A model generated the notes under the pieces. The model made no database searches and was not told where the DNA came from. It was given only the letters and a program-made list of their open reading frames with translations. Shown piece by piece: positions 22,728 through 62,598 of a DNA stretch of 64,000 nucleotides. Numbering within the stretch: the stretch's first letter is position 1; every line of letters starts with the position of its first letter. The position numbers were made by a program, and so were the translations under genes. The DNA is from Candidatus Omnitrophota bacterium. GTDB lineage: Bacteria > Omnitrophota > Gorgyraeia > Duberdicusellales > Duberdicusellaceae. The stretch is from NCBI GenBank assembly GCA_021163425.1, contig JAGGWS010000038.1, positions 10,418-74,417 on the forward strand, read 5' to 3'.

Positions 22728-24143
22728 TTATAGAGAAAGGAGATTTAAAATAGATTGGGAAGCCTTTTTAGCAGTAGCCATTGCTGAGATTACTGTCCCT
22801 TCCCCACCTACTATATCTCCTCCAGCATAGACCTTTTTAAGAGAAGTCTCCATGGTTTCGGGATTAACCAAGATATCGCCAGACTTATCCAGTTGAATCT
22901 GAGGAGTAGCAGAAGTCAATACTCTATTTGCCTTTAAACCAATAGCAATTATTACTACATCAGCCTCTATCTCAAATTCACTGCCTTCAATAGGAAAAGG
23001 CTTCCTTCTTCCTGAAGAATCGGGTTTGCCTAATTTACACTTCAAAGCTCTTATTTTTTTTACAAACCCTCGCTCATCGCCAATAAACTCTACCGGCTGA
23101 ACCAGAAATTCAAAATTAACTCCTTCTTCTTTAGCATGTTCAATCTCTAATCTTCTTGCCGGCATCTCCACCTCTGTTCTTCGGTAAATTACGGTAGTAT
23201 CAGGTTTTAAACCTTGCCCGAGCTGAACTCTTAAAGAAGAACGGGCAGCATCCATGGCAGTATTCCCTCCACCAATAACCACAACCTTCTCTCCAATATT
23301 TATAGGAGTATGAAATTGGGGGAATTTAAAAGCAGACATTAAGTTAATCCGGGTTAAAAACTCATTGGCTAAATAGATATTTCCCAGATTTTCTCCCTTT
23401 ATCCCTAAAAAAGAGGGAGTACCTGCTCCTAAACCTAAAAATATAGCCGAAAAATCTTTCTCCAGCTCAGATAAAGGTTTGGTCTTCCCTACTATAAAGT
23501 TAGTTATAAATTCTACTCCCATACTTTTAAGATAGTTAATTTCAAAGTCTAAGATAGGCCGAGGCAATCGGAAAGGAGGGATACCATACCTTAAAACTCC
23601 TCCCAATTGATGAAGGGCTTCAAAAACCACTACTTTTACGCCTTGACGAGCTAATTCTCCAGCACAGCACAACCCGGCTGGACCTGAACCTACTATCGCC
23701 ACCTTTTCTTTGAATTTTGAATTTTGAATTTTGAATGTTAAGTTTTGATAATTTTTTATCCCCCAATCTCCAATAAATCTTTCTAAAAAATGTATGTTTA
23801 TTGCTTCTGGAGAAGCAAAAGGCTTATCCTTATTTCTATTTAATATACAGAATTTTCTACATTGATACTCAGCAGGACAAACTCTTCCGCAGATAGCTGG
23901 AAAGTTATTCTTCTCCCGAATAGTAAGATAAGCAGATTTATAATCTCTCTGAGTAATTTCAAAGATAAATTTTTTTATATCTATTCCTACTGGACAACCC
24001 TGGATACATTTAGGTTCTTTACACTGAAGACACCTCTTAGCTTCTTCTTGAGCTCCTTCTTCAGAATAACCTAAAGCTACCTCTTCAAAACTCCTTATTC
24101 TTTCTGAAGGTAAAAGCTCCTTAATTTTTACAGGACCTTTCAT
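22728..24143 (-). CDS. nfnB: NADPH-dependent glutamate synthase small-subunit-like oxidoreductase (NfnB/SudA/GltD family)
   Basis: N-terminal 2x[4Fe-4S] motif (CLQCKEPKCIQGCPV ... CGRVCP), FAD and NAD(P) Rossmann motifs (VAIVGSGPAGL, VVVIGGGNTAMD). The track start at 24188 is a TTG; the ATG at 24143 (MKGPVKIK) is the likely start. Confidence 0.8.
   Translation of the reverse strand: MKGPVKIKELLPSERIRSFEEVALGYSEEGAQEEAKRCLQCKEPKCIQGCPVGIDIKKFIFEITQRDYKSAYLTIREKNNFPAICGRVCPAEYQCRKFCILNRNKDKPFASPEAINIHFLERFIGDWGIKNYQNLTFKIQNSKFKEKVAIVGSGPAGLCCAGELARQGVKVVVFEALHQLGGVLRYGIPPFRLPRPILDFEINYLKSMGVEFITNFIVGKTKPLSELEKDFSAIFLGLGAGTPSFLGIKGENLGNIYLANEFLTRINLMSAFKFPQFHTPINIGEKVVVIGGGNTAMDAARSSLRVQLGQGLKPDTTVIYRRTEVEMPARRLEIEHAKEEGVNFEFLVQPVEFIGDERGFVKKIRALKCKLGKPDSSGRRKPFPIEGSEFEIEADVVIIAIGLKANRVLTSATPQIQLDKSGDILVNPETMETSLKKVYAGGDIVGGEGTVISAMATAKKASQSILNLLSL
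23708..23735. repeat. heptamer tract (TTGAATT)x3.5 inside the nfnB coding sequence
   Basis: ctttgaattttgaattttgaattttgaatg encodes FKIQNSKFK just before the FAD-binding GxGxxG. Confidence 0.6.
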
Positions 24144-24154
24144 CTCTGAAACGT

Positions 24155-24191
24155 AACTTGACAAAATGTTTTCAAAAGAAAGTGTCAAGTT
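24155..24191. repeat. palindromic element copy (minus orientation) in the nfnA-nfnB intercistronic junction
   Basis: Minus-strand reading AACTTGACActttcttttgaaaacatttTGTCAAGTT. It shares its spacer with the 42719 copy at 17 of 19 positions, includes the nfnA stop codon, and ends 11 nt before the nfnB ATG. Confidence 0.7.
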
Positions 24192-35856: not shown

Positions 35857-36626
35857 TTTAACTTTTTAATGATTTCTGAAGCTGCCTTTTTTCCCGAAAG
35901 AAGCATCCCTCCAAATATAGGCCCCATCCGGGGAGAACCAAATACAGCATTAGCTGCCATTCCACAAACATATAAACCCGGACAAACCTCTTTAGTATTT
36001 TTAAGAATAGTAGTCTCAGCAACTTCAGCCCACATAGATTTTTCTCCTAAAATTTTTCCTGTAGAAGTCTTAAGTTTAATATCTGCCTTTTTCTCTGCCA
36101 CTCTTACTACTTCTGCAGCATGGCCTGTAGCATCCACTACATACTTTGCTCTTAAAGTTAAAGGGTCTACATCTAAATTAGCCAATTCCACTGCAGTCCA
36201 GTTTAAAACCAGACCACAAACCCTATTTTTCCTTATTAAAACATCTTCAGCCGATATTAAATTGAAAATCTTAACTCCTGCTTGCATACATCTATAACCC
36301 AAACCACAAACAGCCTCTATTGCCTCAGCCAAGTAATAGTCCTCTTTATAAGGGTGAGTGGCTATTCTCAACTCATCTAATATAAGTCTGGCTTTCTTTT
36401 GAACTACAATCTCGTTAAACATCATACCCCCACCCCACATACCTCCTCCTATAGAAAGCTTCCTCTCCAGTAAAACAATACTCCTTTTAGCTTTAGCTAA
36501 ATAGTAAGCACAGCTAAGCCCTGAAGGCCCTCCTCCCACTATAGCTACATCTACATCCAGAACTTTTAGAAGTTTTTTCTTATAAGAATTAATAATTGCT
36601 TGAGAGATTTTTATCTCATCTAACAT
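35853..36626 (-). CDS. thi4: thiazole synthase Thi4 family (sulfide-dependent ADP-thiazole synthase type)
   Basis: FAD Rossmann motif [21 protein letters not shown]. Thi4 length and motifs (GMMFN, cysteine-free active site). Confidence 0.75.
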
Positions 36627-42617: not shown

Positions 42618-42718
42618 CTTATTTCTTACCTACAGGCATTATACAATAGATTTTCTCTCTTATCCCTAAAATTTTTTAACCTCTTCTTCAGAAAAGGCAG
42701 AAATCATTATAGTTCCTT

Positions 42719-42755
42719 AACTTGACACTTTATTTTCAAAACATTTTGTCAAGTT
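42719..42755. repeat. 37-bp palindromic intergenic element AACTTGACA-N19-TGTCAAGTT (reference copy)
   Basis: AACTTGACActttattttcaaaacatttTGTCAAGTT. The right arm supplies the TGA stop of the radical-SAM gene. Related copies are listed as separate features. Confidence 0.7.
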
Positions 42756-47223: not shown

Positions 47224-47637
47224 TCATTCTCCAATAATTTTTACTAAAACTCTCTTGGGGCGTTGGCCATCGAATTCTCCATAAAAAACCTGCTCCCACG
47301 GACCAAAATCAAGTTTACCTCCAGTTATAGCAATTACCACCTCTCTACCCATAATTGTCCGTTTAAGATGAGCAGGGGCATTATCTTCTCCGGATAAGTT
47401 GTGTTTGTATCTCTTTCCCGAAGGAACGAGCTCCTCAAGCCACCTTTTAAAATCTTCCTTTAAGCCTTCTTCTTCATCATTAATAAAAACAGAAGAAGTA
47501 ATATGCATAGCATTAACTAAACACAAACCCTCTTTTACTTTACTTTTTTCTACTAACTCTTCTATCTGGGAGGTTATATTTATAAACTCAACCTTACTCT
47601 TAGTATTAAACCATAGATATTCAGTAAATGACCTCAT
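47224..47637 (-). CDS. yjbQ: YjbQ/UPF0047 family (secondary thiamine-phosphate synthase-like)
   Basis: 137 aa with the conserved YjbQ fold signature (...HITSS..INDEE...). Confidence 0.7.
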
Positions 47638-47804
47638 ACCCCCCCTTCTTAGAAACTAATTTTATCACAAAGCCTAAAATCTGTAAAAGGAGATTCCTAT
47701 CTTGGTTATTATATCTTGACTATTGTATCTTGGTTATTAGTTATAGTTACACCGCCAGGTCTAATTAAACTTATTCATTGGAAATTGGAAATTTACATAG
47801 CTGT

Positions 47805-47841
47805 AACTTGACATTTTACTTTCGAAGTATTTTGTCAAGTT
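47805..47841. repeat. palindromic element copy (plus orientation, variant spacer) with AAATTTACATAGCT 5' extension
   Basis: AACTTGACAttttactttcgaagtatttTGTCAAGTT, preceded by GGAAATTGGAAATTTACATAGCTGT and followed by a short octamer array. Confidence 0.65.
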
Positions 47842-47878
47842 TACACGTTTTAACGTTTATATGTTTTCACGTTTCTAT
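47842..47878. repeat. short YACGTTYW octamer array (about 4 units)
   Basis: tacacgtt ttaacgtt tatatgtt ttcacgtt tc, directly abutting the palindromic element. Confidence 0.5.
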
Positions 47879-49761: not shown

Positions 49762-51726
49762 CTAAATCTCCTGCCTCAGCTGTTTCTCAGCGTCTACTAC
49801 ATCTCTGTTTATCCGAGTTAAGATATTTTTAACTTTCTTTTTAAAGTCTTCTTTAAAGCCTTCAAAAGAAAGAAGTTCTCTTAAGATTTGAATATCCATC
49901 CGAAAATACCTTACTAATTCGCCTTCATCGATTTCAGAAAATTTAGAAAGTTTTGAAAATCTTATTCCCTCAAACCAGAGAGAGTTCACTTCGGCTAAGT
50001 GGTAAAAAAAGCGTTTAGATAGGGGGAATATTTTGCAACTTCTCTCTTTCTTATGGATTCTTCTGATTACCGGGTCCAAAACCTTCTGTAACCTTTTTAA
50101 ATTCTTAGTAAGCTTGGGCTTTTTCTCTCCCTTGCGGGGTTCATATACTAAAGAAGAAATAATAATTAAGAGTTCCTCCTCTTTAACTTCTTCTAAAACA
50201 CCTTCCTGATAAAGTTCACCCAGAGGAAGTTCATAACTGTAAAGCCGGGAGGCTAATTCTCCTTTCCAGGTAAGGACTTTCTCTTTACTTATATACCCCA
50301 ATTCCTTAAGAAGTTCTATTTTTCTCTTAATTAAATTAAGGGCTTCTTCCTTTTCTTGCTTCTGGGAGGAGAAAAAATGAAAGGATAAAGGATAAATCTG
50401 ATATATTTTTTCTCCCATATCCTTATAAAGATTAAGGAGAGTAGCATAATTGCTTCTCAACTGGCTTTTTATCTCTTCAGGGTTAGCGTAGAGTATCCTT
50501 TCTAATTCTTTCAGTTCTATTGCAAAAGGATTAACTTTTACAAAAACATAGCCTTTTTTATCAATACCTCTCCTTCCTGCCCGCCCAGCCATCTGGTAGA
50601 AGTCTCGGGTCTTTACGTTCCGGTGAAACCGACCATAAAATTTTCTTAAATCATCAAAGGCTACACTCTTTGCCGGCATATTTATCCCCAAAGCAAAAGT
50701 TTCGGTAGTAAATATTACCTTTAGAAGCCTGGAAGTAAAAAGCCTTTCTATTACTTCTTTAAGGGTAGGGAGAAGGCCGGCATGGTGGAAAGCTACCCCT
50801 CTCTTTATTAAGTCATAGAGGTATAAAGAAGTAGGTTCTCTTTCTAAATCAAAAGTCTTAAGGAGACGGGTATAAAGACTGATTATTTTCTTCTTTTCCT
50901 CTTTATTGAGAAAATCAAAAACCGCCACCTCTTGAGCAAAAAGTTCAGACCTTGCCCGGGAGAAACTAAAATATATGCAGGGTAAAAGCTGATTTTCTCT
51001 TAAGTATCTAAATAGTGTACTTATCCTGTTGGGTCGAGTATGGAGGATTTCTTTTAGCCTCCTCCTTCTTATTCTCCGAATATCTTCTAAGAGAAAATTA
51101 CTTCTTTTTAATTCTTTAAACCCCGAGAATATCTTATCATTACACTGAAAGTAAAACTTTAAAGGAACAGGCCTCTTGTCTTCTTTTATCACCTCTACAG
51201 GGATACGATGAATCTTATTTATCCAGGAAGCTATCTCCTCTATATTAGGAACAGTTGCTGATAAAGCTAAAATCTTAAGATGTCGGGGCATAAGCATAAT
51301 AGCCTCCTCCCAGACTGTTCCTCTTTCGGGATCATCTAAATAGTGTATCTCATCAAAAATTACCCATTCTTTGTTTTTAAGTCTTTCCGGTTCAGTTAAA
51401 ATTACATTTCTGAATATTTCAGTAGTCATTATTAAAACTTCAGCCTGAGGGTTTATACTAACGTCTCCAGTTAAAATACCTACTTTCTCTTTATAAGCCC
51501 TGCGAAAATCTCTATACTTCTGATTACTCAATGCTTTTATCGGTGCTGTATAAATCACTTCTTTTTGGGAATTTTGAGCTTTTTCTATGGCATATTCAGC
51601 AATCAGGGTTTTTCCTGCACCGGTAGGAGCAGAAACTATTACTGATTTTCCTTCCTCTATAGCCTTGATAGCCTCTTCTTGAAACCTATCTAAAATTAAC
51701 TCTTTATAAATTTTCATATTACTCAT
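49762..51726 (-). CDS. Ski2/HelY-like DExH-box superfamily-2 helicase with a DSHCT-like C-terminal domain
   Basis: Q motif/motif I (FQEEAI...APTGAGKT), motif II DEIHYLDDPERGTVWEE (Ski2-type DEvH...RG.VWEE), motif VI QMAGRAGRRG. C-terminal EGELVRYFRMDIQILRELL resembles DSHCT. Confidence 0.7.
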   Translation of the reverse strand: MSNMKIYKELILDRFQEEAIKAIEEGKSVIVSAPTGAGKTLIAEYAIEKAQNSQKEVIYTAPIKALSNQKYRDFRRAYKEKVGILTGDVSINPQAEVLIMTTEIFRNVILTEPERLKNKEWVIFDEIHYLDDPERGTVWEEAIMLMPRHLKILALSATVPNIEEIASWINKIHRIPVEVIKEDKRPVPLKFYFQCNDKIFSGFKELKRSNFLLEDIRRIRRRRLKEILHTRPNRISTLFRYLRENQLLPCIYFSFSRARSELFAQEVAVFDFLNKEEKKKIISLYTRLLKTFDLEREPTSLYLYDLIKRGVAFHHAGLLPTLKEVIERLFTSRLLKVIFTTETFALGINMPAKSVAFDDLRKFYGRFHRNVKTRDFYQMAGRAGRRGIDKKGYVFVKVNPFAIELKELERILYANPEEIKSQLRSNYATLLNLYKDMGEKIYQIYPLSFHFFSSQKQEKEEALNLIKRKIELLKELGYISKEKVLTWKGELASRLYSYELPLGELYQEGVLEEVKEEELLIIISSLVYEPRKGEKKPKLTKNLKRLQKVLDPVIRRIHKKERSCKIFPLSKRFFYHLAEVNSLWFEGIRFSKLSKFSEIDEGELVRYFRMDIQILRELLSFEGFKEDFKKKVKNILTRINRDVVDAEKQLRQEI

Positions 51727-51858
51727 TATTATGGAGTATTTTTCCTTTTTTCAAATAAAATCTTCTAAACTAAATTACCTGTATGAACTATAAACCATAA
51801 ACTACTCCCAGGAGTATTCAAACCGTCTTGCGAATTACTCTCGGTTTCGTCTGTCGTC

Positions 51859-51930
51859 TTTACACGTTTATACGTTTACACGTTCACACGTTTCTACGTT
51901 CACACGTTTCTACGTTTTTACGTTCATACG
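51859..51930. repeat. tandem array of about 9 copies of the 8-bp unit YACGTTYW
   Basis: tacacgtt tatacgtt tacacgtt cacacgtt tctacgtt cacacgtt tctacgtt tttacgtt catacgtt, read off directly. Confidence 0.8.
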
Positions 51931-51966
51931 TTTTAACATATTATTTTGAAAACATTTTGTCAAGTT
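51931..51966. repeat. palindromic element copy with degenerate left arm (TTTAACA) and conserved spacer/right arm
   Basis: ttttaacatattattttgaaaacatttTGTCAAGTT, 7 nt after the stop of the Cas4-like nuclease gene and abutting the octamer array. Confidence 0.6.
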
Positions 51967-51972
51967 AGGGGG

Positions 51973-52620
51973 TTAAAAAAGATTGTTTACCTGGCGGGCC
52001 CAATTACAGAATTCACAATTCTCAGAAGAAGGAGGCATTTCCTTTTTTAGAAGCCTGACTGCCTCAATAAATACTTTTTCGGCTCGTTGAGGGTTGGTTT
52101 CTACTTCTTTTACTTCTGCTTTAAAAGGGAAACCATTATGCAAAACTCCCTCTTCAGGAATATAGTAAACTAAAAAAGCTAAATTCCTGCTCTTAAAATT
52201 ATTCTTTTCCAGTAGAAAAGTGTAGACATCTAACTGAAACTGAAAAGCCTCGTGAATCAAAGAAGGAGCTGAACTGCGGGTCTTATGGTCTAAGGCTAAG
52301 TAAAAACCCTCCTCATCTACTATACATTCGTCTAACTTTCCCTGCAAAGAAGCATTGAGTTCTAAAGAATTATACCATAAAGTCTTGGGGAGAATATCTA
52401 TTAACCTCCCTTTAATCTTTTCCTGCAAGATAGGAGGTAAAATATTCTTTCCTCTATAACTATCAAAATACTTTTTAACTACCAAATCTAAACCAGTTGC
52501 TATGGAAGGAAAAGGGGCTCTTGGCCTTCTTAAACCTCTATTAATAGTAAGCCAGAAACACCTTGGACATTCTAAGTAAAGATTTAAAGATGAAGCTGAA
52601 AGGACTATCTTTCTATCCAC
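51973..52620 (-). CDS. PD-(D/E)XK nuclease with a 4-Cys cluster, Cas4/RecB-family-like
   Basis: N-terminal CPRC and C-terminal CEFC cysteines. Core IVDEEG...LALDHK (D...D-x-K) and a QxxxY motif (QLDVY) typical of the RecB/Cas4 nuclease family. 215 aa. Confidence 0.5.
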   Translation of the reverse strand: MDRKIVLSASSLNLYLECPRCFWLTINRGLRRPRAPFPSIATGLDLVVKKYFDSYRGKNILPPILQEKIKGRLIDILPKTLWYNSLELNASLQGKLDECIVDEEGFYLALDHKTRSSAPSLIHEAFQFQLDVYTFLLEKNNFKSRNLAFLVYYIPEEGVLHNGFPFKAEVKEVETNPQRAEKVFIEAVRLLKKEMPPSSENCEFCNWARQVNNLF

Positions 52621-53140: not shown

Positions 53141-53455
53141 GTCCTCTTTAGCAAAGTCTTCTCTTTACCACCACAATACCTTCTTTTACAAAATAATTTT
53201 TCTTATCTTCAGTAATATTAAAACGGTCAATAATTGCCTTCTTTATTTTACAACTTCCTTCTATCTCTGTAAAGTCCATAATAATAGAATCAATAATCTG
53301 GCTTTCTTTTATTATTACCCCTCTTCCTATAATAGAGTTTTTATATAAGAATTTTCAACCTGACAGCCTTCACTAATTAAAGAATTAACAAAAGGATAAA
53401 GCCTTTCTCTCCCGCCTCCAGCCATTACCATAGCTAAAACTTTATTTTCCATCTT
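53141..53455 (-). pseudogene. glgC: decayed, internally deleted and frameshifted remnant of glucose-1-phosphate adenylyltransferase
   Basis: Minus-strand ATG at 53455 gives MENKVLAMVMAGGGRERLYPF (GlgC N-terminal nucleotide-binding loop). About 20 aa later it joins LbH-domain-like sequence ...SLISEGCQVENSYI and reaches a stop. A +2 frame continues NSIIGRGVIIKESQIIDSIIM...KKAIIDRFNITEDKKNYFVKEGIVVVKRRLC, matching the GlgC C-terminus. About 300 aa of the middle are missing. Confidence 0.45.
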
Positions 53456-53465
53456 ACAATCTACA

Positions 53466-53604
53466 TTTTACGTTCACACGTTCATACGTTTACACGTTTA
53501 CACGTTTTTACGTTTACACGTTTTTACGTTTACACGTTTTCACGTTTACACGTTCATACGTTTTTACGTTCATACGTTTACACGTTCATACGTTTACACG
53601 TTTT
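53466..53604. repeat. tandem array of about 17 copies of the 8-bp unit YACGTTYW
   Basis: tacgttca cacgttca tacgttta cacgttta cacgtttt tacgttta cacgtttt ... Continuous 8-bp periodicity over about 140 bp, immediately upstream of the glgC remnant start. Confidence 0.85.
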
Positions 53605-53636
53605 AACATATTATTTTGAAAACATTTTACCAAGTT
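53600..53636. repeat. degenerate palindromic element copy (TTTAACA ... TACCAAGTT)
   Basis: ttttaacatattattttgaaaacatttTACCAAGTT. Same spacer as the 51931 copy; both arms are mutated. About 18 nt after the stop of the 1002-aa gene. Confidence 0.5.
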
Positions 53637-53653
53637 ACGCTGGTTATTGGTTA

Positions 53654-58101: not shown

Positions 58102-58658
58102 CTTCCCACAGGAATATTTATTAGTTCCTGATAATTCTCTCTACGGCCTTTATAACTTAAAGTAAGCTCTGTCTTGACTGCTAAAGGTAATTCTTTATAA
58201 GAATTTTCCCATTTTTCTCCATCAAAAAAACTAAAGTTCAGACTCTCTATACTGGAGCTTAATACCTCTTCTTTATCAAAAGTATTGAAGTTAAAATCAC
58301 ATTTTGATTCTCTTCTTACTAAACTTTTTTTCTCAGGAAGAAAAATATAGCCTATCTCCCTAAGTCCTTCGGAATCAGGATAAACAAAAAATAAAGCCTG
58401 CTTATCTCCTTTAAATATTTCTCCTTCCCCCCGGATAATCTCTTCATTTGCTCTTAGAGCAGAAGAAAGTTCTCTGGATATCACCCAGAATACCCTCTTT
58501 AGATTCTGGTATCTCTGGGCTAAAACTTGAGCCTCCTGATAAGAAAGAAGGGCACTTCTAAAAATTGTGCCCACAATAGTTATCACCGCAACAAAAATCC
58601 CTATAGCAATTAGAACCTCTATTAAGGTGAAACTAATCTTTCTCAGAAAAATACTCAT
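58098..58658 (-). CDS. prepilin-type pseudopilin (GspJ/GspH-like)
   Basis: MSIFLRKISFTLIEVLIAIGIF prepilin motif. The track start at 58679 is a TTG; the ATG at 58658 is the likely start. Confidence 0.6.
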   Translation of the reverse strand: MSIFLRKISFTLIEVLIAIGIFVAVITIVGTIFRSALLSYQEAQVLAQRYQNLKRVFWVISRELSSALRANEEIIRGEGEIFKGDKQALFFVYPDSEGLREIGYIFLPEKKSLVRRESKCDFNFNTFDKEEVLSSSIESLNFSFFDGEKWENSYKELPLAVKTELTLSYKGRRENYQELINIPVGR

Positions 58659-58667
58659 AGCTAAGGA

Positions 58668-58695
58668 TATAACTTTCAAAACATTTTGTCAAATT
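58668..58695. repeat. partial palindromic element (conserved spacer plus right arm TGTCAAATT)
   Basis: tataactttcaaaacatttTGTCAAATT between the stop of the 510-aa gene (58700) and the start of the pseudopilin gene (58658). The left arm is not recognisable. Confidence 0.45.
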
Positions 58696-58699
58696 ACGC

Positions 58700-60232
58700 T
58701 TATTTTCTCTTAAAGAAAAGTATTTTCTGGAGTTTTTCTATAAAGGTCTCTTCTTTCACAGTCCAACTCCATTGAGCAGGGGTGGGGTCTTCCTCATAGA
58801 GAGAAATTAACCCATCTCCATCTATATCTAAGCCAGCTTTGACTTTGAATAAGTGAACTCCCAAACTTAGACCAGAAAAACTCACGCTTTTTTCTTTCTT
58901 CCAGGAAGACCACTCCGAACCATCTAAAGAATAACTGAACAAACACCCCTCACGGGAAGCCTGATAATAAAATGTAGCTTCTTTCTCAGGAGTTAAACTG
59001 GAAGGACCACTTATTATTCGAGTATCAGGAGCCAATACTACTAAGTCAATATCATCAGAAAATACAGGAGATACATTTCCAGCATAATCTTCAAACTTAA
59101 TATAAACTGTCTTCTTCCCGGATATATCCGGCTCTTTCAGAAGCCAATCCTCTATTAAAGCCTTGAATTCCAGCGGATTATCCATCTCCGTATCAAAAAC
59201 ACCATCATTGGATATGTAGATATACTTTATTCCACTTACCTCATCAGAAGCTGTAATTTTTAGAGTAACATAAGGAGAATTAGTTACAGGGTCATCATTA
59301 TTTATCACCACACTACCCTGAGGGGAATGAGTATCTACAATAAAGCTCCAGGCTTTGCTAACCTGGTTTCCTATGTTGTCCTCTGCCTTTATTAAAACTA
59401 TATTTTCTCCATCGGGCAAACTTCCCTTATAGGAATAAATATTCTTATCCTCAGCAAACTTTCCAGAGACTTCTTCTCCATTCAGGAAAAACTGTAAACT
59501 ACTTAAGTTGACCCCTGAATGTAAATCTTCTACCTTACAACTTATCTCCACAAAGCTCTGGTTAATAAGCTCAGAAACAGCCGGGGTTAACTCAGTTACA
59601 GAAGGATGAGTAGTATCTACCCAAATCTCAAAGCTTAGAGGTTGCCCCCAGACTTTTCCTCCTCCATAAGGGGCTACATAAAAGATATGTTTTCCATCAG
59701 AGAGGCTGTCCTGAGGATACTGATAAAAAGAAAACTCTGTATCTACCTCCCCATCAGGAAGACTATCTAAAGAGAAACTAAACCCTTTTATTAAAACAGG
59801 TGGGTTAATAACAACAATCCAGTAAAAATAGGGGTCATTATCTTTCTGCCATACTGACGGAGAAATTTCAAAGCCACCCAGATGAGTTTTTGCACGAAGT
59901 TCAGCTATTTCATAGAGCACTTCTCCTACCAGGACAGGCCAGTAACAACTAAAATTAATCCCTATCTGAGTACTTGCAACTTCTACAGGCACTGAAAACA
60001 ACTGTCCGACAACAAAGTAAGTAAGGCGGCGCTCACTAAAAGAAGCAAAACCCAGACTGGTGCCTATACTTATAAGCTCAATCTCATAATTAGAAGAGGC
60101 AGCCTGCTCAGCATATACCCCTGATACAATATAAAGGATAAAGAATAAAATAATAATTTGAAATTTGAAATTTGAAATTTGAAATTTATTACTTTGAAAT
60201 TTGAAATTTGAAATTTGAAATTTATTACTCAT
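58700..60232 (-). CDS. secreted protein of unknown function with a repeat-encoded N-terminus
   Basis: The N-terminus MSNKFQISNFKFQ-SNKFQISNFKFQ is encoded by a 36-bp tandem duplication, then a hydrophobic signal-like segment IIILFFILYIVSGVYA-EQ. The ATG overlaps the TGA of the upstream ATPase gene (ATGA). Confidence 0.45.
   Translation of the reverse strand: MSNKFQISNFKFQSNKFQISNFKFQIIILFFILYIVSGVYAEQAASSNYEIELISIGTSLGFASFSERRLTYFVVGQLFSVPVEVASTQIGINFSCYWPVLVGEVLYEIAELRAKTHLGGFEISPSVWQKDNDPYFYWIVVINPPVLIKGFSFSLDSLPDGEVDTEFSFYQYPQDSLSDGKHIFYVAPYGGGKVWGQPLSFEIWVDTTHPSVTELTPAVSELINQSFVEISCKVEDLHSGVNLSSLQFFLNGEEVSGKFAEDKNIYSYKGSLPDGENIVLIKAEDNIGNQVSKAWSFIVDTHSPQGSVVINNDDPVTNSPYVTLKITASDEVSGIKYIYISNDGVFDTEMDNPLEFKALIEDWLLKEPDISGKKTVYIKFEDYAGNVSPVFSDDIDLVVLAPDTRIISGPSSLTPEKEATFYYQASREGCLFSYSLDGSEWSSWKKEKSVSFSGLSLGVHLFKVKAGLDIDGDGLISLYEEDPTPAQWSWTVKEETFIEKLQKILFFKRK
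60156..60227. repeat. perfect 36-bp tandem duplication, each unit containing (TTTGAAA)x4 + TTTATTAC
   Basis: tttgaaatttgaaatttgaaatttgaaatttattac occurs twice back-to-back. It encodes the first 24 residues of the 58700-60232 protein. Confidence 0.85.
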
Positions 60233-62128: not shown

Positions 62129-62173
62129 ACTAAAAGTATAGGCCGTCTCTTCTCCTGCTCAACGTCGGCAGAT

Positions 62174-62322
62174 TCACACGTTCACACGTTCTCACGTTCA
62201 CACGTTCATACGTTCTCACATTCACACGTTCACACGTTCTCACGTTCATACGTTCTCACGTTCATACGTTCTCACGTTCATACGTTCACACGTTCACACG
62301 TTTTTACATTTATACGTTCTAC
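62174..62322. repeat. tandem array of about 19 copies of the 8-bp unit YACGTTYW
   Basis: cacgttca cacgttct cacgttca cacgttca tacgttct cacattca ... The longest array in the window. Lies in the 800-bp non-coding region between the PilB-like gene and hup. Confidence 0.85.
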
Positions 62323-62525
62323 GAAACCGCTTTAAACTTTTATCCCAATTATTATAATACGAGTTCTATTTTTTGAAAAGTGCTTAGTTTTTGGATACAG
62401 AAAAAAAGACGCCGGCATACACTTAAACTCAAACTCCGGAGTATTCTACCAACTATTAGTTATTGATTATTGATATTGATTGAGGATCGCCCTCGATTCC
62501 TCAAAAATTTATTGAAAATTTACAT

Positions 62526-62561
62526 AGCTTGACATTTATTCTGAAAAAATTCTGTCAAATT
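62526..62561. repeat. palindromic element variant AGCTTGACA-N18-TGTCAAATT with AAATTTACATAGCT 5' extension
   Basis: gaaaatttacatAGCTTGACAtttattctgaaaaaattcTGTCAAATTacgttct. It shares the 5' extension with the 47805 copy and is followed by one ACGTT unit. Confidence 0.55.
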
Positions 62562-62598
62562 ACGTTCTTAGACTATTAGCAAAAAATATAATAAATTC

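What the first reader, a model, noticed from the sequence alone, without database searches (positions are those of the whole stretch)
53466..53604. Long tandem arrays of an 8-bp unit (YACGTTYW) at four intergenic loci, always abutting the palindromic element
The arrays are 47842-47878 (about 4 units), 51859-51930 (about 9), 53466-53604 (about 17) and 62174-62322 (about 19). The unit keeps an invariant ACGTT core with a wobbling flank, the pattern of replication-slippage microsatellites, yet the copy numbers are far above chance. In three loci the array directly adjoins a copy of the 37-bp element (element then array, in the element's own orientation), so together they form a composite repeat. 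The 8-bp period is out of helical phase, so successive ACGTT cores spiral around the DNA. The locations are promoter-proximal: upstream of the helicase gene, of the nitroreductase/nuclease operon, of yjbQ, and in the hup/pilB divergent region. Copy-number change would alter promoter spacing and is a candidate phase or rheostat-variation mechanism. Alternatives are a multimeric ACGT-binding protein or iteron-like sites. They are not CRISPRs (8-bp unit, no spacers).
Basis: seen in the sequence. Interest (0 to 1): 0.75.

Follow-up and report, generated by a model that had tools for sequence, protein, structure and literature searches.

The report
Variable octamer satellite between genes
Four intergenic tracts in an uncultured Omnitrophota genome are real tandem arrays of an 8-bp unit with a fixed AACGT core; they vary in length between related strains and mark sites where small gene cassettes come and go, but they do not look like a fast on/off promoter switch.

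Summary
Four arrays of ACGTT-Y-W-Y (AACGT-RWR on the gene-sense minus strand) carry 4, 9, 17 and about 19 units, which chance does not produce. Three of the four abut a copy or half-copy of the palindrome TAACTTGACA-N18-TGTCAAGTTA.

- **Organism:** Candidatus Omnitrophota. The genome is very compact, with a median gene gap of 10 bp.
- **Unit structure:** the 5-nt core is almost invariant, the 3-nt spacer varies freely, identical neighbours are depleted, and a 16-bp higher order dominates. These are interrupted satellites, not clean slippage microsatellites.
- **Copy number:** identical in three assemblies of the same population. It differs in relatives of about 91-96% DNA identity (4 vs 11 units; 19 vs 7+5).
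- **Array 4 site:** in one relative it is split by a PF05635 "23S rRNA IVS protein" gene, itself interrupted by a GIY-YIG ORF. PF05635 genes picked by protein homology alone are bracketed by 7-9-bp tandem repeats in several phyla.
- **Promoters:** the arrays lie outside the -35/-10 spacers.

Best reading: STRR/LSSR-like junction repeats, probably solo copies of the tracts that bracket IVS-protein cassettes, with a motif under unexplained constraint. Promoter-spacing phase variation is poorly supported. A binding factor remains possible but untested.

The parts
47839..47878 (-). Array 1: about 4 units (3 exact ACGTT cores plus one ATGTT). It starts 10 bp after the stop codon of the RsmB/F-like gene.
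   Evidence: The orthologous site in L210 has 11 units.
47804..47841 (.). Complete palindromic element TAACTTGACA-N18-TGTCAAGTT abutting array 1.
51859..51933 (-). Array 2: 9 units, between the PD-(D/E)XK (Cas4-like) gene and the Ski2-like helicase gene.
51931..51967 (-). Half palindromic element. On the minus strand it reads TAACTTGACA-N17-TATGTT, a promoter-like site pointing into array 2.
53466..53604 (-). Array 3, the reported feature: 17 units, ending 14 bp upstream of the start codon of a glgC remnant.
   Evidence: Six of the 7 differences in L120 fall at 53500-53509 inside it.
53601..53637 (-). Half palindromic element, 2 mismatches to the array-2 copy (TTGGTA in place of TTGACA), abutting array 3.
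62173..62322 (-). Array 4: about 19 units (16 exact cores, 2 ACATT, 1 degenerate), in the pilB / small-ORF / hup intergenic region.
   Evidence: In L238 the site is split by a PF05635::GIY-YIG insert.
62351..62379 (-). Promoter-like site TTTTCA-17-TATAAT directly upstream (minus orientation) of array 4.
62527..62565 (.). Degenerate palindromic element (CTTGACA...TGTCAAATTA) about 205 bp from array 4.
   Evidence: (D18)
53148..53452 (-). glgC pseudogene remnants (residues 2-23 and 328-401 of the intact relative) downstream of array 3.
   Evidence: glgC is intact in L124.
47698..47739 (.). 14-bp tandem repeat (TATCTTGGTTATTA x3) in the same intergenic region as array 1. L210 has GGTTACC heptamer arrays at this place.
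24154..24191 (.). Complete palindromic element with no array.
42718..42755 (.). Complete palindromic element with no array.

Best explanation
The four tracts are copies of a lineage-specific, interrupted octanucleotide satellite, (AACGT-RWR)n on the gene-sense strand, in an uncultured Omnitrophota bacterium. They belong to the poorly understood class of long intergenic 7-9-bp tandem repeats (LSSR/STRR-like).

**Shown**
- They are one building block of mosaic intergenic modules, together with the TAACTTGACA...TGTCAAGTTA palindrome and heptamer tracts.
- These modules fill the few long gene gaps of a very compact genome.
- Copy number is stable within one population but differs between relatives of about 91-96% DNA identity.
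- Array loci coincide with structural change: a PF05635 'IVS protein' gene split by a GIY-YIG ORF sits inside the array-4 site in a relative; yjbQ is internally deleted next to array 1 in another; the module is replaced at the array-3 locus in a third; glgC has decayed.
- PF05635 genes in several phyla are bracketed by AACGT(T/G) octamer tracts or other 7-9-bp tandem tracts.

**Inferred**
- The window's arrays are solo copies (empty sites or scars) of the direct-repeat tracts that bracket such cassettes.
- They grow and shrink by slipped-strand or unequal exchange, mostly in 16-bp (two-unit) steps. The self-complementary ACGT every 8 nt lets either strand fold back, which should help this.
- As direct repeats they permit cassette loss and gain by recombination.
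- The AACGT motif is under constraint, probably because a factor recognises each unit. That factor is not identified.
For: - **Reality and phasing:**
- **Organism:**
- **Compact genome:** median gene gap 10 bp; the array gaps (246-525 bp) are among the largest.
- **Motif constraint:** over 183 units from this lineage's arrays only 6 cores deviate, while the three spacer positions carry 1.2-1.6 bits of entropy.
- **Higher order:** identical neighbours 13 vs 24.4 expected (P=0.004); lag-2 identity in the window 15 vs 7.6 (P=0.0016).
- **Short-term stability:** L119-L121 are 99.94-100% identical to the window with the same copy numbers. Six of the 7 differences in L120 cluster in array 3 as a unit swap.
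- **Divergence in relatives:** L210 has 11 vs 4 units and a yjbQ deletion. L238 has 7+5 units around an 830-bp PF05635::GIY-YIG insert at the array-4 site. L166 has a different module at the array-3 locus.
- **More distant relatives** (70-84% aa identity) have no arrays and different synteny.
- **PF05635 genes next to ACGTT arrays:** L015, L040, L083, L099, L176 and L238; 7 of 9 hits lie within 111 bp of an array.
- **PF05635 genes chosen by protein only** (8 loci) sit between co-directional genes and are flanked by tandem repeats: 9 arrays in 1.9 kb of flank against 8 in 23.7 kb elsewhere. Two of these loci carry AACGTG/GAANGTG octamers, and L324 also has solo arrays.
- **Core plus variable spacer is characteristic of (A)ACGT(T) arrays:** about 11 of 33 arrays are heterogeneous against 3 of 49 for the control cores AGCTT and ATCGT in viral contigs (counted by eye from the listing).
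- **Fold-back ladder** of ACGU helices.
Against: - No PF05635 gene lies in the 64-kb window, so the cassette link is direct only for array 4 and by analogy for arrays 1-3.
- Cause and effect are unresolved. Repeats may simply accumulate in already unstable junk DNA.
- Fetched loci were selected for containing arrays, which inflates adjacency. The protein-first sample has only 8 loci.
- Period-8 arrays with other cores are equally frequent in viral contigs (22 vs 23 vs 23 stretches), so cross-phylum hits to ACGTT arrays partly reflect the search pattern.
- No recombination intermediate, binding protein or transcript was observed.
- Self-complementarity explains ACGT but not the invariant extra A.
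Confidence: 0.42

Rival explanations
1. Multi-site operator: each AACGT is bound by a cooperatively polymerising DNA-binding protein. The geometry would resemble MetJ on tandem 8-bp met boxes or omega repressor on heptads. The protein would coat the tract next to promoter-like sites and tune transcription of the downstream gene, with copy number setting occupancy.
For: - Invariant 5-nt motif at strict 8-bp phase with a free 3-nt spacer.
- Identical neighbours are avoided, as expected if many sites must be kept while the tract stays stable.
- Promoter-like hexamers lie directly upstream of arrays 2-4.
- The ACGT centre and 8-bp period match met-box arrays (own knowledge).
- HU and other DNA-binding genes lie nearby.
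Against: - No candidate regulator was identified.
- 9-19 sites is far more than known RHH operators carry.
- The unit is not palindromic beyond ACGT.
- The arrays are absent from relatives with the same genes, so the downstream genes do not need them.
- The downstream genes share no function, and one is a pseudogene.
Confidence: 0.2
2. Neutral or selfish by-product. The tracts are hairpin-prone simple-sequence DNA that expands by replication slippage in the few places where a compact genome tolerates it. The core persists only because units with an intact self-complementary ACGT keep being re-amplified. There is no function for the cell.
For: - The same genomes hold many unrelated 7- and 8-bp tandem arrays: 89 with period 7, against 20 with period 6 and 23 with period 9.
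- Arrays are lineage-specific and missing in relatives.
- Either strand folds into a ladder of ACGT helices.
- One array sits next to a pseudogene.
- Slippage is the published explanation for LSSRs (PMC4679880, introduction).
Against: - A neutral tract should diverge equally at all 8 positions, but the core is about 50-fold less variable than the spacer.
- The invariant A before ACGT is not explained by pairing.
- Depletion of identical neighbours is the opposite of fresh slippage.
Confidence: 0.2
3. RNA-level element. The arrays are transcribed with the flanking genes as (AACGURWR)n leaders or intercistronic spacers. They would act in RNA as a ladder hairpin or processing site, as a binding tract for an RNA-binding protein, or as a three-frame translation stop (UAA/UGA in about half of the units).
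For: - Modules begin 6-17 bp after the upstream stop codon and end 14-133 bp before the next start, with no terminator-like site between.
- Promoter-like -10 hexamers place arrays 2-4 at the start of a transcript.
- In the Omnitrophota-type contigs, AACGT is always on the sense strand of the neighbouring genes and of the PF05635 genes.
- Across phyla the orientation bias is 133 to 79.
- TAACTGA heptamer repeats are proposed to act in this way (PMC4679880).
Against: - No expression data.
- The predicted structure is weak: 4-bp helices with 4x4 loops, z about -2.5.
- Orientation cannot be separated from replication direction because all genes share one strand.
- No Rfam family matches.
Confidence: 0.1
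4. Contingency locus. Frequent slippage changes copy number and so switches or tunes the adjacent promoters.
For: Copy number differs between strains and the arrays lie near promoter-like sites.
Against: - The arrays are not between -35 and -10.
- The tracts are interrupted, not homogeneous.
- Copy numbers are identical in three assemblies of one population.
- The neighbouring genes are not surface or virulence genes.
Confidence: 0.06

Closest known systems
Long simple-sequence repeats with 5-11-nt units (LSSR, Mrazek et al. 2007) and cyanobacterial STRR heptamers
   Same: Intergenic head-to-tail repeats of a 7-8-nt unit, several loci per genome, sporadic across phyla, function unknown, slippage invoked (PMC4679880 introduction; STRR from own knowledge). 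The genomes that carry ACGTT arrays also carry many other heptamer and octamer tracts.
   Different: Here the unit has an invariant 5-nt core and a freely varying 3-nt spacer. Identical neighbours are depleted, there is a 16-bp higher order, and the tract is fused to a palindromic element. Omnitrophota have not been reported for this, as far as the searched library shows.
TAACTGA heptamer direct repeats of marine Beggiatoaceae, Cyanobacteria and Bacteroidetes (MacGregor 2015, PMC4679880)
   Same: Short tandem repeats in intergenic regions, close to start codons, in sense orientation, containing stop codons, phylogenetically patchy. Roles proposed in translation control and in gene rearrangement.
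   Different: Those are a different unit (7 nt), mostly 2-6 copies, homogeneous, and have no described link to PF05635 genes or to a palindrome.
MetJ operators (tandem 8-bp met boxes AGACGTCT) and omega-repressor heptad arrays
   Same: 8-bp (or 7-bp) period, an ACGT centre, and tandem sites bound by successive dimers that spiral around the DNA (own knowledge).
   Different: Met boxes are palindromic, number 2-5, and overlap a promoter. Here the units are asymmetric, number 9-19, and no RHH regulator is identified.
Phase-variable simple-sequence contingency loci (Haemophilus, Neisseria, Moraxella)
   Same: Tandem short repeats near promoters or 5' UTRs whose copy number differs between strains (the Neisseria 8-bp repeat).
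   Different: Those tracts are homogeneous, sit in ORFs, promoter spacers or leaders of surface genes, and vary within populations. None of this is seen here.
23S rRNA intervening sequences that carry a PF05635 ORF
   Same: The same protein family lies inside an insertion bounded by complementary flanks. In the loci examined here the flanks are tandem 7-9-bp repeats, the downstream set being the reverse complement of the upstream set.
   Different: The insertions seen here lie between protein-coding genes, not in rRNA. In the Omnitrophota type the AACGT tracts are direct repeats lying outside an inner inverted pair. The window holds only solo tracts.

Membership tests
LSSR / STRR-like intergenic tandem repeats | Head-to-tail copies of a 5-11-nt unit, much longer than chance | tested here: met
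   TRF scores 80-191; 33 three-unit matches vs 0 in 100 shuffles.
LSSR / STRR-like intergenic tandem repeats | Intergenic location, several loci, other short-unit tracts in the same genome | tested here: met
   All four lie between ORFs. Heptamer tracts at 23709-23748 and 60155-60223. Relatives carry GGTTACC tracts.
LSSR / STRR-like intergenic tandem repeats | Units essentially identical (simple repeat) | tested here: not met
   4-6 different units per window array; spacer entropy 1.2-1.6 bits across the lineage's arrays.
Phase-variable contingency SSR | Homogeneous tract prone to slippage | tested here: not met
   Identical neighbours 13 vs 24.4 expected.
Phase-variable contingency SSR | Tract inside an ORF or between the -35 and -10 hexamers of a surface or virulence gene | tested here: not met
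   Arrays lie downstream of the -10-like hexamer or upstream of the -35; neighbouring genes are housekeeping or decayed.
Phase-variable contingency SSR | Length heterogeneity within one population | tested here: inconclusive
   Three assemblies have identical lengths and one shows a unit swap. Raw reads were not available.
Phase-variable contingency SSR | Copy number differs between strains | tested here: met
   4 vs 11 units (L210); 19 vs 7+5 (L238).
MetJ-type tandem 8-bp operator | 8-bp period with an ACGT centre | tested here: met
MetJ-type tandem 8-bp operator | Each box palindromic; 2-5 boxes overlapping the promoter | tested here: not met
   Only ACGT is self-complementary; there are 9-19 units, outside the hexamers.
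MetJ-type tandem 8-bp operator | Cognate ribbon-helix-helix repressor present | not tested
   Only 64 kb of the genome is available; no RHH gene was seen among the annotated neighbours.
Iterons / replication origin repeats | 17-22-bp units next to a rep or dnaA gene, with DnaA boxes and an AT-rich unwinding element | tested here: not met
   8-bp units; no rep or dnaA gene; no DnaA-box cluster at 61.9-62.7 kb.
CRISPR | 23-50-bp repeats separated by unique spacers, with cas genes | tested here: not met
   Contiguous 8-bp units. The only related hit is a stand-alone Cas4-like PD-(D/E)XK gene.
Repeat tracts bracketing PF05635 (IVS-protein) cassettes (pattern defined here, not a published family) | Tracts on both sides of a PF05635 gene | tested here: not met
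   No PF05635 hit in the window. Met at the orthologous array-4 site of L238 and in L015, L099, L176 and L324.
Repeat tracts bracketing PF05635 (IVS-protein) cassettes (pattern defined here, not a published family) | Same unit type as tracts that bracket PF05635 genes in related contigs | tested here: met
   AACGT-RWR units flank PF05635 genes in L176, L216 and L238.

The most novel reading that the evidence does not exclude
AACGT(T/G) octamer tracts, and the other 7-9-bp tracts seen here, are the cis-acting partners of PF05635 four-helix-bundle 'IVS proteins' (relatives of the DGR protein Avd). This would be a widespread, undescribed cassette system. The gene, sometimes with a GIY-YIG nuclease, travels between tandem-repeat tracts and inserts between operon genes. 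The oligomeric protein would bind the repeated motif, as TRAP binds its GAG repeats. Solo tracts such as the four in this window would be empty landing sites, scars, or trans-acting targets of that protein.
Probability: 0.2. Interest if true: 0.75.

Novelty: new variant of a known kind. Interest (0 to 1): 0.5.

Why it matters
Intergenic 7-8-bp tandem repeats have been catalogued in bacteria since about 1990 without an accepted function. This case adds three things:

- A clean example in which a 5-nt motif is held constant at strict 8-bp phase while the spacer drifts, so the motif itself is constrained.
- Direct strain comparisons showing that these tracts are the places where genes are inserted, deleted or replaced in an otherwise very compact genome.
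- A reproducible link between such tracts and the unexplained PF05635 'IVS protein' genes in several phyla.

If that link is causal, it gives a testable handle both on the function of that protein family and on how small cassettes enter operons without breaking them.

Tried and rejected
- **CRISPR, iterons, oriC:** rejected on unit size, absence of spacers, and absence of rep/dnaA genes or DnaA boxes.
- **Known RNA families and tRNAs:** none in the window.
- **Restriction avoidance of ACGT:** ACGT is 12 observed vs about 196 expected from base composition. Most of this is general CpG depletion (observed/expected 0.37). Against a second-order Markov model it is 12 vs 20, so there is no special ACGT avoidance.
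- **Is the ACGTT core special among period-8 arrays?** Viral-contig scans gave 22, 23 and 23 stretches for ACGTT, AGCTT and ATCGT, so it is not. Only the heterogeneous type is enriched.
- **Conserved neighbour gene across 118 genome loci:** all-against-all BLAST of flanking ORFs gave nothing except the PF05635 family.
- **DNA-uptake sequence** (type IV pilus genes are nearby): rejected because ACGTT is rare outside the arrays.
- **Hachiman-like defence pair** (helicase plus nuclease around array 2): only generic helicase-core matches to HamB and Cas4-like hits, and the helicase is conserved throughout Omnitrophota.
- **Literature:** searches for the unit sequences and for octamer repeats found no description. 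The nearest were GTTGCTYN octanucleotide sites in Geobacter and the TAACTGA repeats.
- **Metagenome scan for ACGTTYWY arrays:** most hits are perfect microsatellites of unknown, possibly eukaryotic, origin and were set aside.
- **Orientation relative to genes across phyla:** only a weak bias, from crude ORF calls.

Full report
**1. The observation**

Tandem Repeats Finder reports period-8 arrays at 47840-47874 (4.2 copies), 51859-51933 (9.4), 53470-53603 (16.8) and 62173-62320 (16-18.5 copies, also scored with periods 16 and 24). Exact ACGTT cores at 8-bp spacing number 3, 9, 17 and 16. Array 4 has two ACATT units in register, giving about 19 units with its degenerate ends. A three-unit pattern occurs 33 times in the window and never in 100 dinucleotide-preserving shuffles. 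All arrays have ACGTT on the plus strand. 45 of the 57 ACGT tetramers of the window lie in them.

ACGT looks heavily depleted elsewhere, but most of that is general CpG depletion (observed/expected 0.37). Against a second-order Markov model ACGT is 12 observed vs 20 expected, whereas CTAG, GATC and GTAC are strongly avoided.

**2. Setting**

The helicase next to array 2 has thousands of homologues labelled Candidatus Omnitrophota/Omnitrophica, the closest at 84% identity. The window has 35% G+C. Every ORF of at least 120 aa from 689 to 61881 is on the minus strand except one (35869-36297) nested inside a minus-strand ORF. The median gap between genes is 10 bp, and the array-bearing gaps (246, 250 and 525 bp) are among the eight largest.

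Read in the direction of the genes, the unit is AACGT-RWR. The neighbours are:

- queA, then yjbQ (UPF0047).
- Array 1 with a palindrome.
- An RsmB/F-like methyltransferase, a radical-SAM gene and a Ski2-like DEAD/DSHCT helicase.
- Array 2 with a half palindrome.
- A Cas4-like PD-(D/E)XK nuclease, a nitroreductase and two glgC remnants.
- Array 3 with a half palindrome.
- A 1002-aa LTD protein, pseudopilins, pilC and pilB.
- A 47-aa ORF, array 4, then hup and greA.

**3. Relation to the palindromic element**

The element is TAACTTGACA-N18-TGTCAAGTTA.

- Complete copies lie at 24154-24191, 42718-42755 and 47804-47841, with a degenerate one at 62527-62565.
- Half copies lie at 51931-51967, 53601-53637 and 58658-58695.
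- The decamer AACTTGACA occurs only in these elements.
- Arrays 2 and 3 replace one arm. On the minus strand the remaining half reads TTGACA-17-TATGTT (TTGGTA at array 3) and runs straight into the first unit.
- Array 1 abuts the outside of a complete palindrome.
- Array 4 has no adjoining element, but a TTTTCA-17-TATAAT site lies directly upstream on the minus strand.
- In a related contig (L238) a 9-unit array sits inside a palindrome, flanked by a 10-bp duplication TTATTTTGAA.
- The sequences at the junctions (AATATGT, AAAATGT, GTAAACTT) are one base away from units. This suggests, but does not prove, that tracts were seeded from the element.

The composite is real, but the 'element then array, same orientation, always' rule is not.

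**4. Internal structure**

I pooled 183 units from the window and from contigs with the same unit type (L166, L176, L182, L210, L216, L238).

- Only 6 cores deviate from AACGT, while the three spacer positions carry 1.2-1.6 bits of entropy. Detection was anchored on the core, so this is partly by construction, but deviant units bracketed in register are rare.
- Identical neighbours are depleted: 13 observed vs 24.4 expected from shuffling units within arrays, P=0.004.
- In the window, units two apart are identical more often than expected: 15 vs 7.6, P=0.0016. One 52-unit array (L176) has no identical neighbours at all.

This is an interrupted satellite with a 16-bp higher order, not a fresh slippage product. 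Equal neutral decay of all eight positions is excluded.

Because ACGT is self-complementary and recurs every 8 nt, either strand folds into a ladder of 4-bp helices with 4x4 loops (z -2.5 to -4.4). This may help misalignment. It does not explain the invariant A in front of ACGT.

**5. Variation**

- *Same population.* Three metagenome contigs from different samples (L119-L121) are 99.94-100% identical to the window and have the same copy numbers. Six of the 7 differences in L120 fall in 10 bp of array 3 and amount to a swap of unit types at constant length.
- *L210* (96% identity on the queA side). The array-1 site has 11 units, not 4. GGTTACC heptamers replace the 14-mer repeat, and window 47292-47589 (most of yjbQ) is missing.
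- *L238* (91% identity over pilB). The array-4 site is split into 7 and 5 units by an 830-bp insert.
- *L166* (93-95% identity in the flanking genes). The array-3 locus carries a copy of the array-4 upstream flank, a 7-unit array, a complete palindrome and a piece resembling window 22.5 kb.
- *More distant relatives* (70-84% aa identity). They have no arrays here and rearranged synteny, and glgC is intact in L124.

Copy number therefore evolves, but slowly, and array loci are hot spots of structural change.

**6. The cassette link**

The L238 insert encodes a PF05635 '23S rRNA intervening sequence protein' (four-helix bundle, Avd-like). Its two halves, once joined, cover the whole Pfam profile (E=9e-25). 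A GIY-YIG ORF separates them (E=1e-12). Its inner flanks are inverted tandem repeats, (TAGCTCAT)n and (ATGAGCTA)n. Next come direct TTATTGGTTGGATTGG repeats, and the AACGT part-arrays lie outside those. Next to it in L238, an AbiEii-type toxin gene and an HTH gene are also bounded by heptamer tracts and the array-split palindrome.

Among all loci fetched by array pattern, 7 of 9 PF05635 hits lie within 111 bp of an ACGTT array. These are L015 (cyanobacterium), L099 (Anaerolineae), L040, L083, L176 and L238.

As a less biased test I fetched eight PF05635 genes chosen only by protein homology.

- Each sits between co-directional genes such as carA/carB, sufA/sufB or two radical-SAM genes.
- Each is flanked by 7-9-bp tandem repeats: 9 arrays in 1.9 kb of flank against 8 in 23.7 kb elsewhere.
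- In the clearest cases the downstream set is the reverse complement of the upstream set.
- Two of the loci carry AACGTG or GAANGTG octamers, and one (L324) also has solo octamer tracts 1.75 kb away.

I found no paper describing this.

**7. Wider distribution and controls**

These were mostly Chloroflexota, with Acidobacteriota, Planctomycetota, Bacteroidota and others also present. Most were (AACGTTNN)n with a variable NN, often 3-60 bp from start codons or exactly between a stop and the next start.

This breadth is partly an artefact of the pattern. In viral contigs, period-8 arrays with cores ACGTT, AGCTT and ATCGT are equally common (22, 23 and 23 stretches). What differs is the type. By my count from the listing, about 11 of 33 ACGTT arrays are heterogeneous against 3 of 49 controls.

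The same genomes are rich in unrelated heptamer and octamer tracts: 89 with period 7 against 20 with period 6 and 23 with period 9. This places the arrays in the known class of long simple-sequence repeats and STRR-like repeats, whose function is unknown (PMC4679880).

**8. Interpretation**

The best-supported account is this. The arrays are an interrupted octamer satellite of the STRR/LSSR kind, built into mosaic junction modules of a compact genome. They change by block gain and loss. They act as, or at least mark, the direct-repeat tracts between which small cassettes (notably PF05635 genes) are gained and lost. The window copies are solo tracts. I give this 0.42.

The constraint on AACGT is shown; its cause is inferred. 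The rivals are:

- A cooperative DNA-binding operator (0.20).
- A neutral hairpin-driven by-product (0.20).
- An RNA-level leader or intercistronic element (0.10).
This one is disfavoured because the arrays lie outside the -35/-10 spacers, are interrupted, show identical lengths in three assemblies, and flank housekeeping or decayed genes.

**9. Verdict**

The feature is real and non-random, and it is a new variant of a known but unexplained kind of bacterial repeat. Interest is moderate (0.5). It rises to about 0.75 if the link between these tracts and PF05635 proteins proves causal (probability about 0.2).

Noticed in passing
window 689-61881: Every ORF of at least 120 aa over 61 kb is on the minus strand, apart from one (35869-36297) nested inside a minus-strand ORF. 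The median gap is 10 bp and GC skew is uniformly negative. The first plus-strand genes (hup, greA) begin just past array 4.
   Followed up: partly
window 53148-53452: glgC is reduced to two fragments (residues 2-23 and 328-401 of the intact gene of a relative). The nitroreductase and Cas4-like nuclease genes follow it.
   Followed up: yes
window, whole: CTAG (observed/expected 0.10), GATC (0.12) and GTAC (0.25) are strongly avoided relative to a second-order Markov model. CpG is at 0.37 of expectation.
   Followed up: partly
window 60155-60229 and 23709-23748: Heptamer tracts (AATTTGA x9.7, including a perfect 36-bp duplication, and TTTGAAT x5.7). The first lies at the pilB/next-gene junction, inside the called 5' end of ORF 58700-60232, whose true start is probably further downstream.
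   Followed up: no
window 24154-24191, 42718-42755, 58658-58695, 62527-62565: Further complete or half copies of the TAACTTGACA-N18-TGTCAAGTTA palindrome in short intergenic gaps without arrays. Their function (operator, bidirectional -35 pair, or REP-like element) is unknown.
   Followed up: partly
window 49762-52620: A Ski2-like DEAD/DSHCT helicase and a Cas4-like PD-(D/E)XK nuclease flank array 2. The helicase matches PADLOC HamB models only over the generic helicase core, so this is probably housekeeping and not a Hachiman system.
   Followed up: partly
L238 3303-4129: In a close relative, a PF05635 four-helix-bundle gene is precisely interrupted by a GIY-YIG nuclease ORF. Joining the two halves restores a full-length Pfam match. 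This looks like a homing-endonuclease or intron-like insertion.
   Followed up: partly
L238 4420-5714: An AbiEii-type nucleotidyltransferase toxin gene and an HTH_3 gene sit where the window has hup. They are bounded by a GGTTACC heptamer tract and a palindrome split by a 9-unit array.
   Followed up: partly
L314-L324 (eight loci from several phyla): PF05635 genes chosen by protein homology alone are inserted between co-directional operon genes (carA/carB, sufA/sufB, radical-SAM pairs, upstream of rplS). They are flanked by 7-9-bp tandem repeats whose downstream set is the reverse complement of the upstream set.
   Followed up: yes
L099 393-895: In an Anaerolineae contig, the stop codon of the upstream gene, the last three codons and stop codon of the PF05635 gene, and the sequence up to 3 nt before the next start codon all lie inside (AACGTTNN)n tracts. 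The cassette fits exactly between two transporter genes.
   Followed up: partly
L126-L245 (metagenome hits): Many perfect (ACGTTCTC)n, (ACGTTCAC)n and (ACGTTTTT)n microsatellites on contigs of 40-55% G+C and unknown, possibly eukaryotic, origin. They are unrelated to the heterogeneous bacterial type.
   Followed up: no
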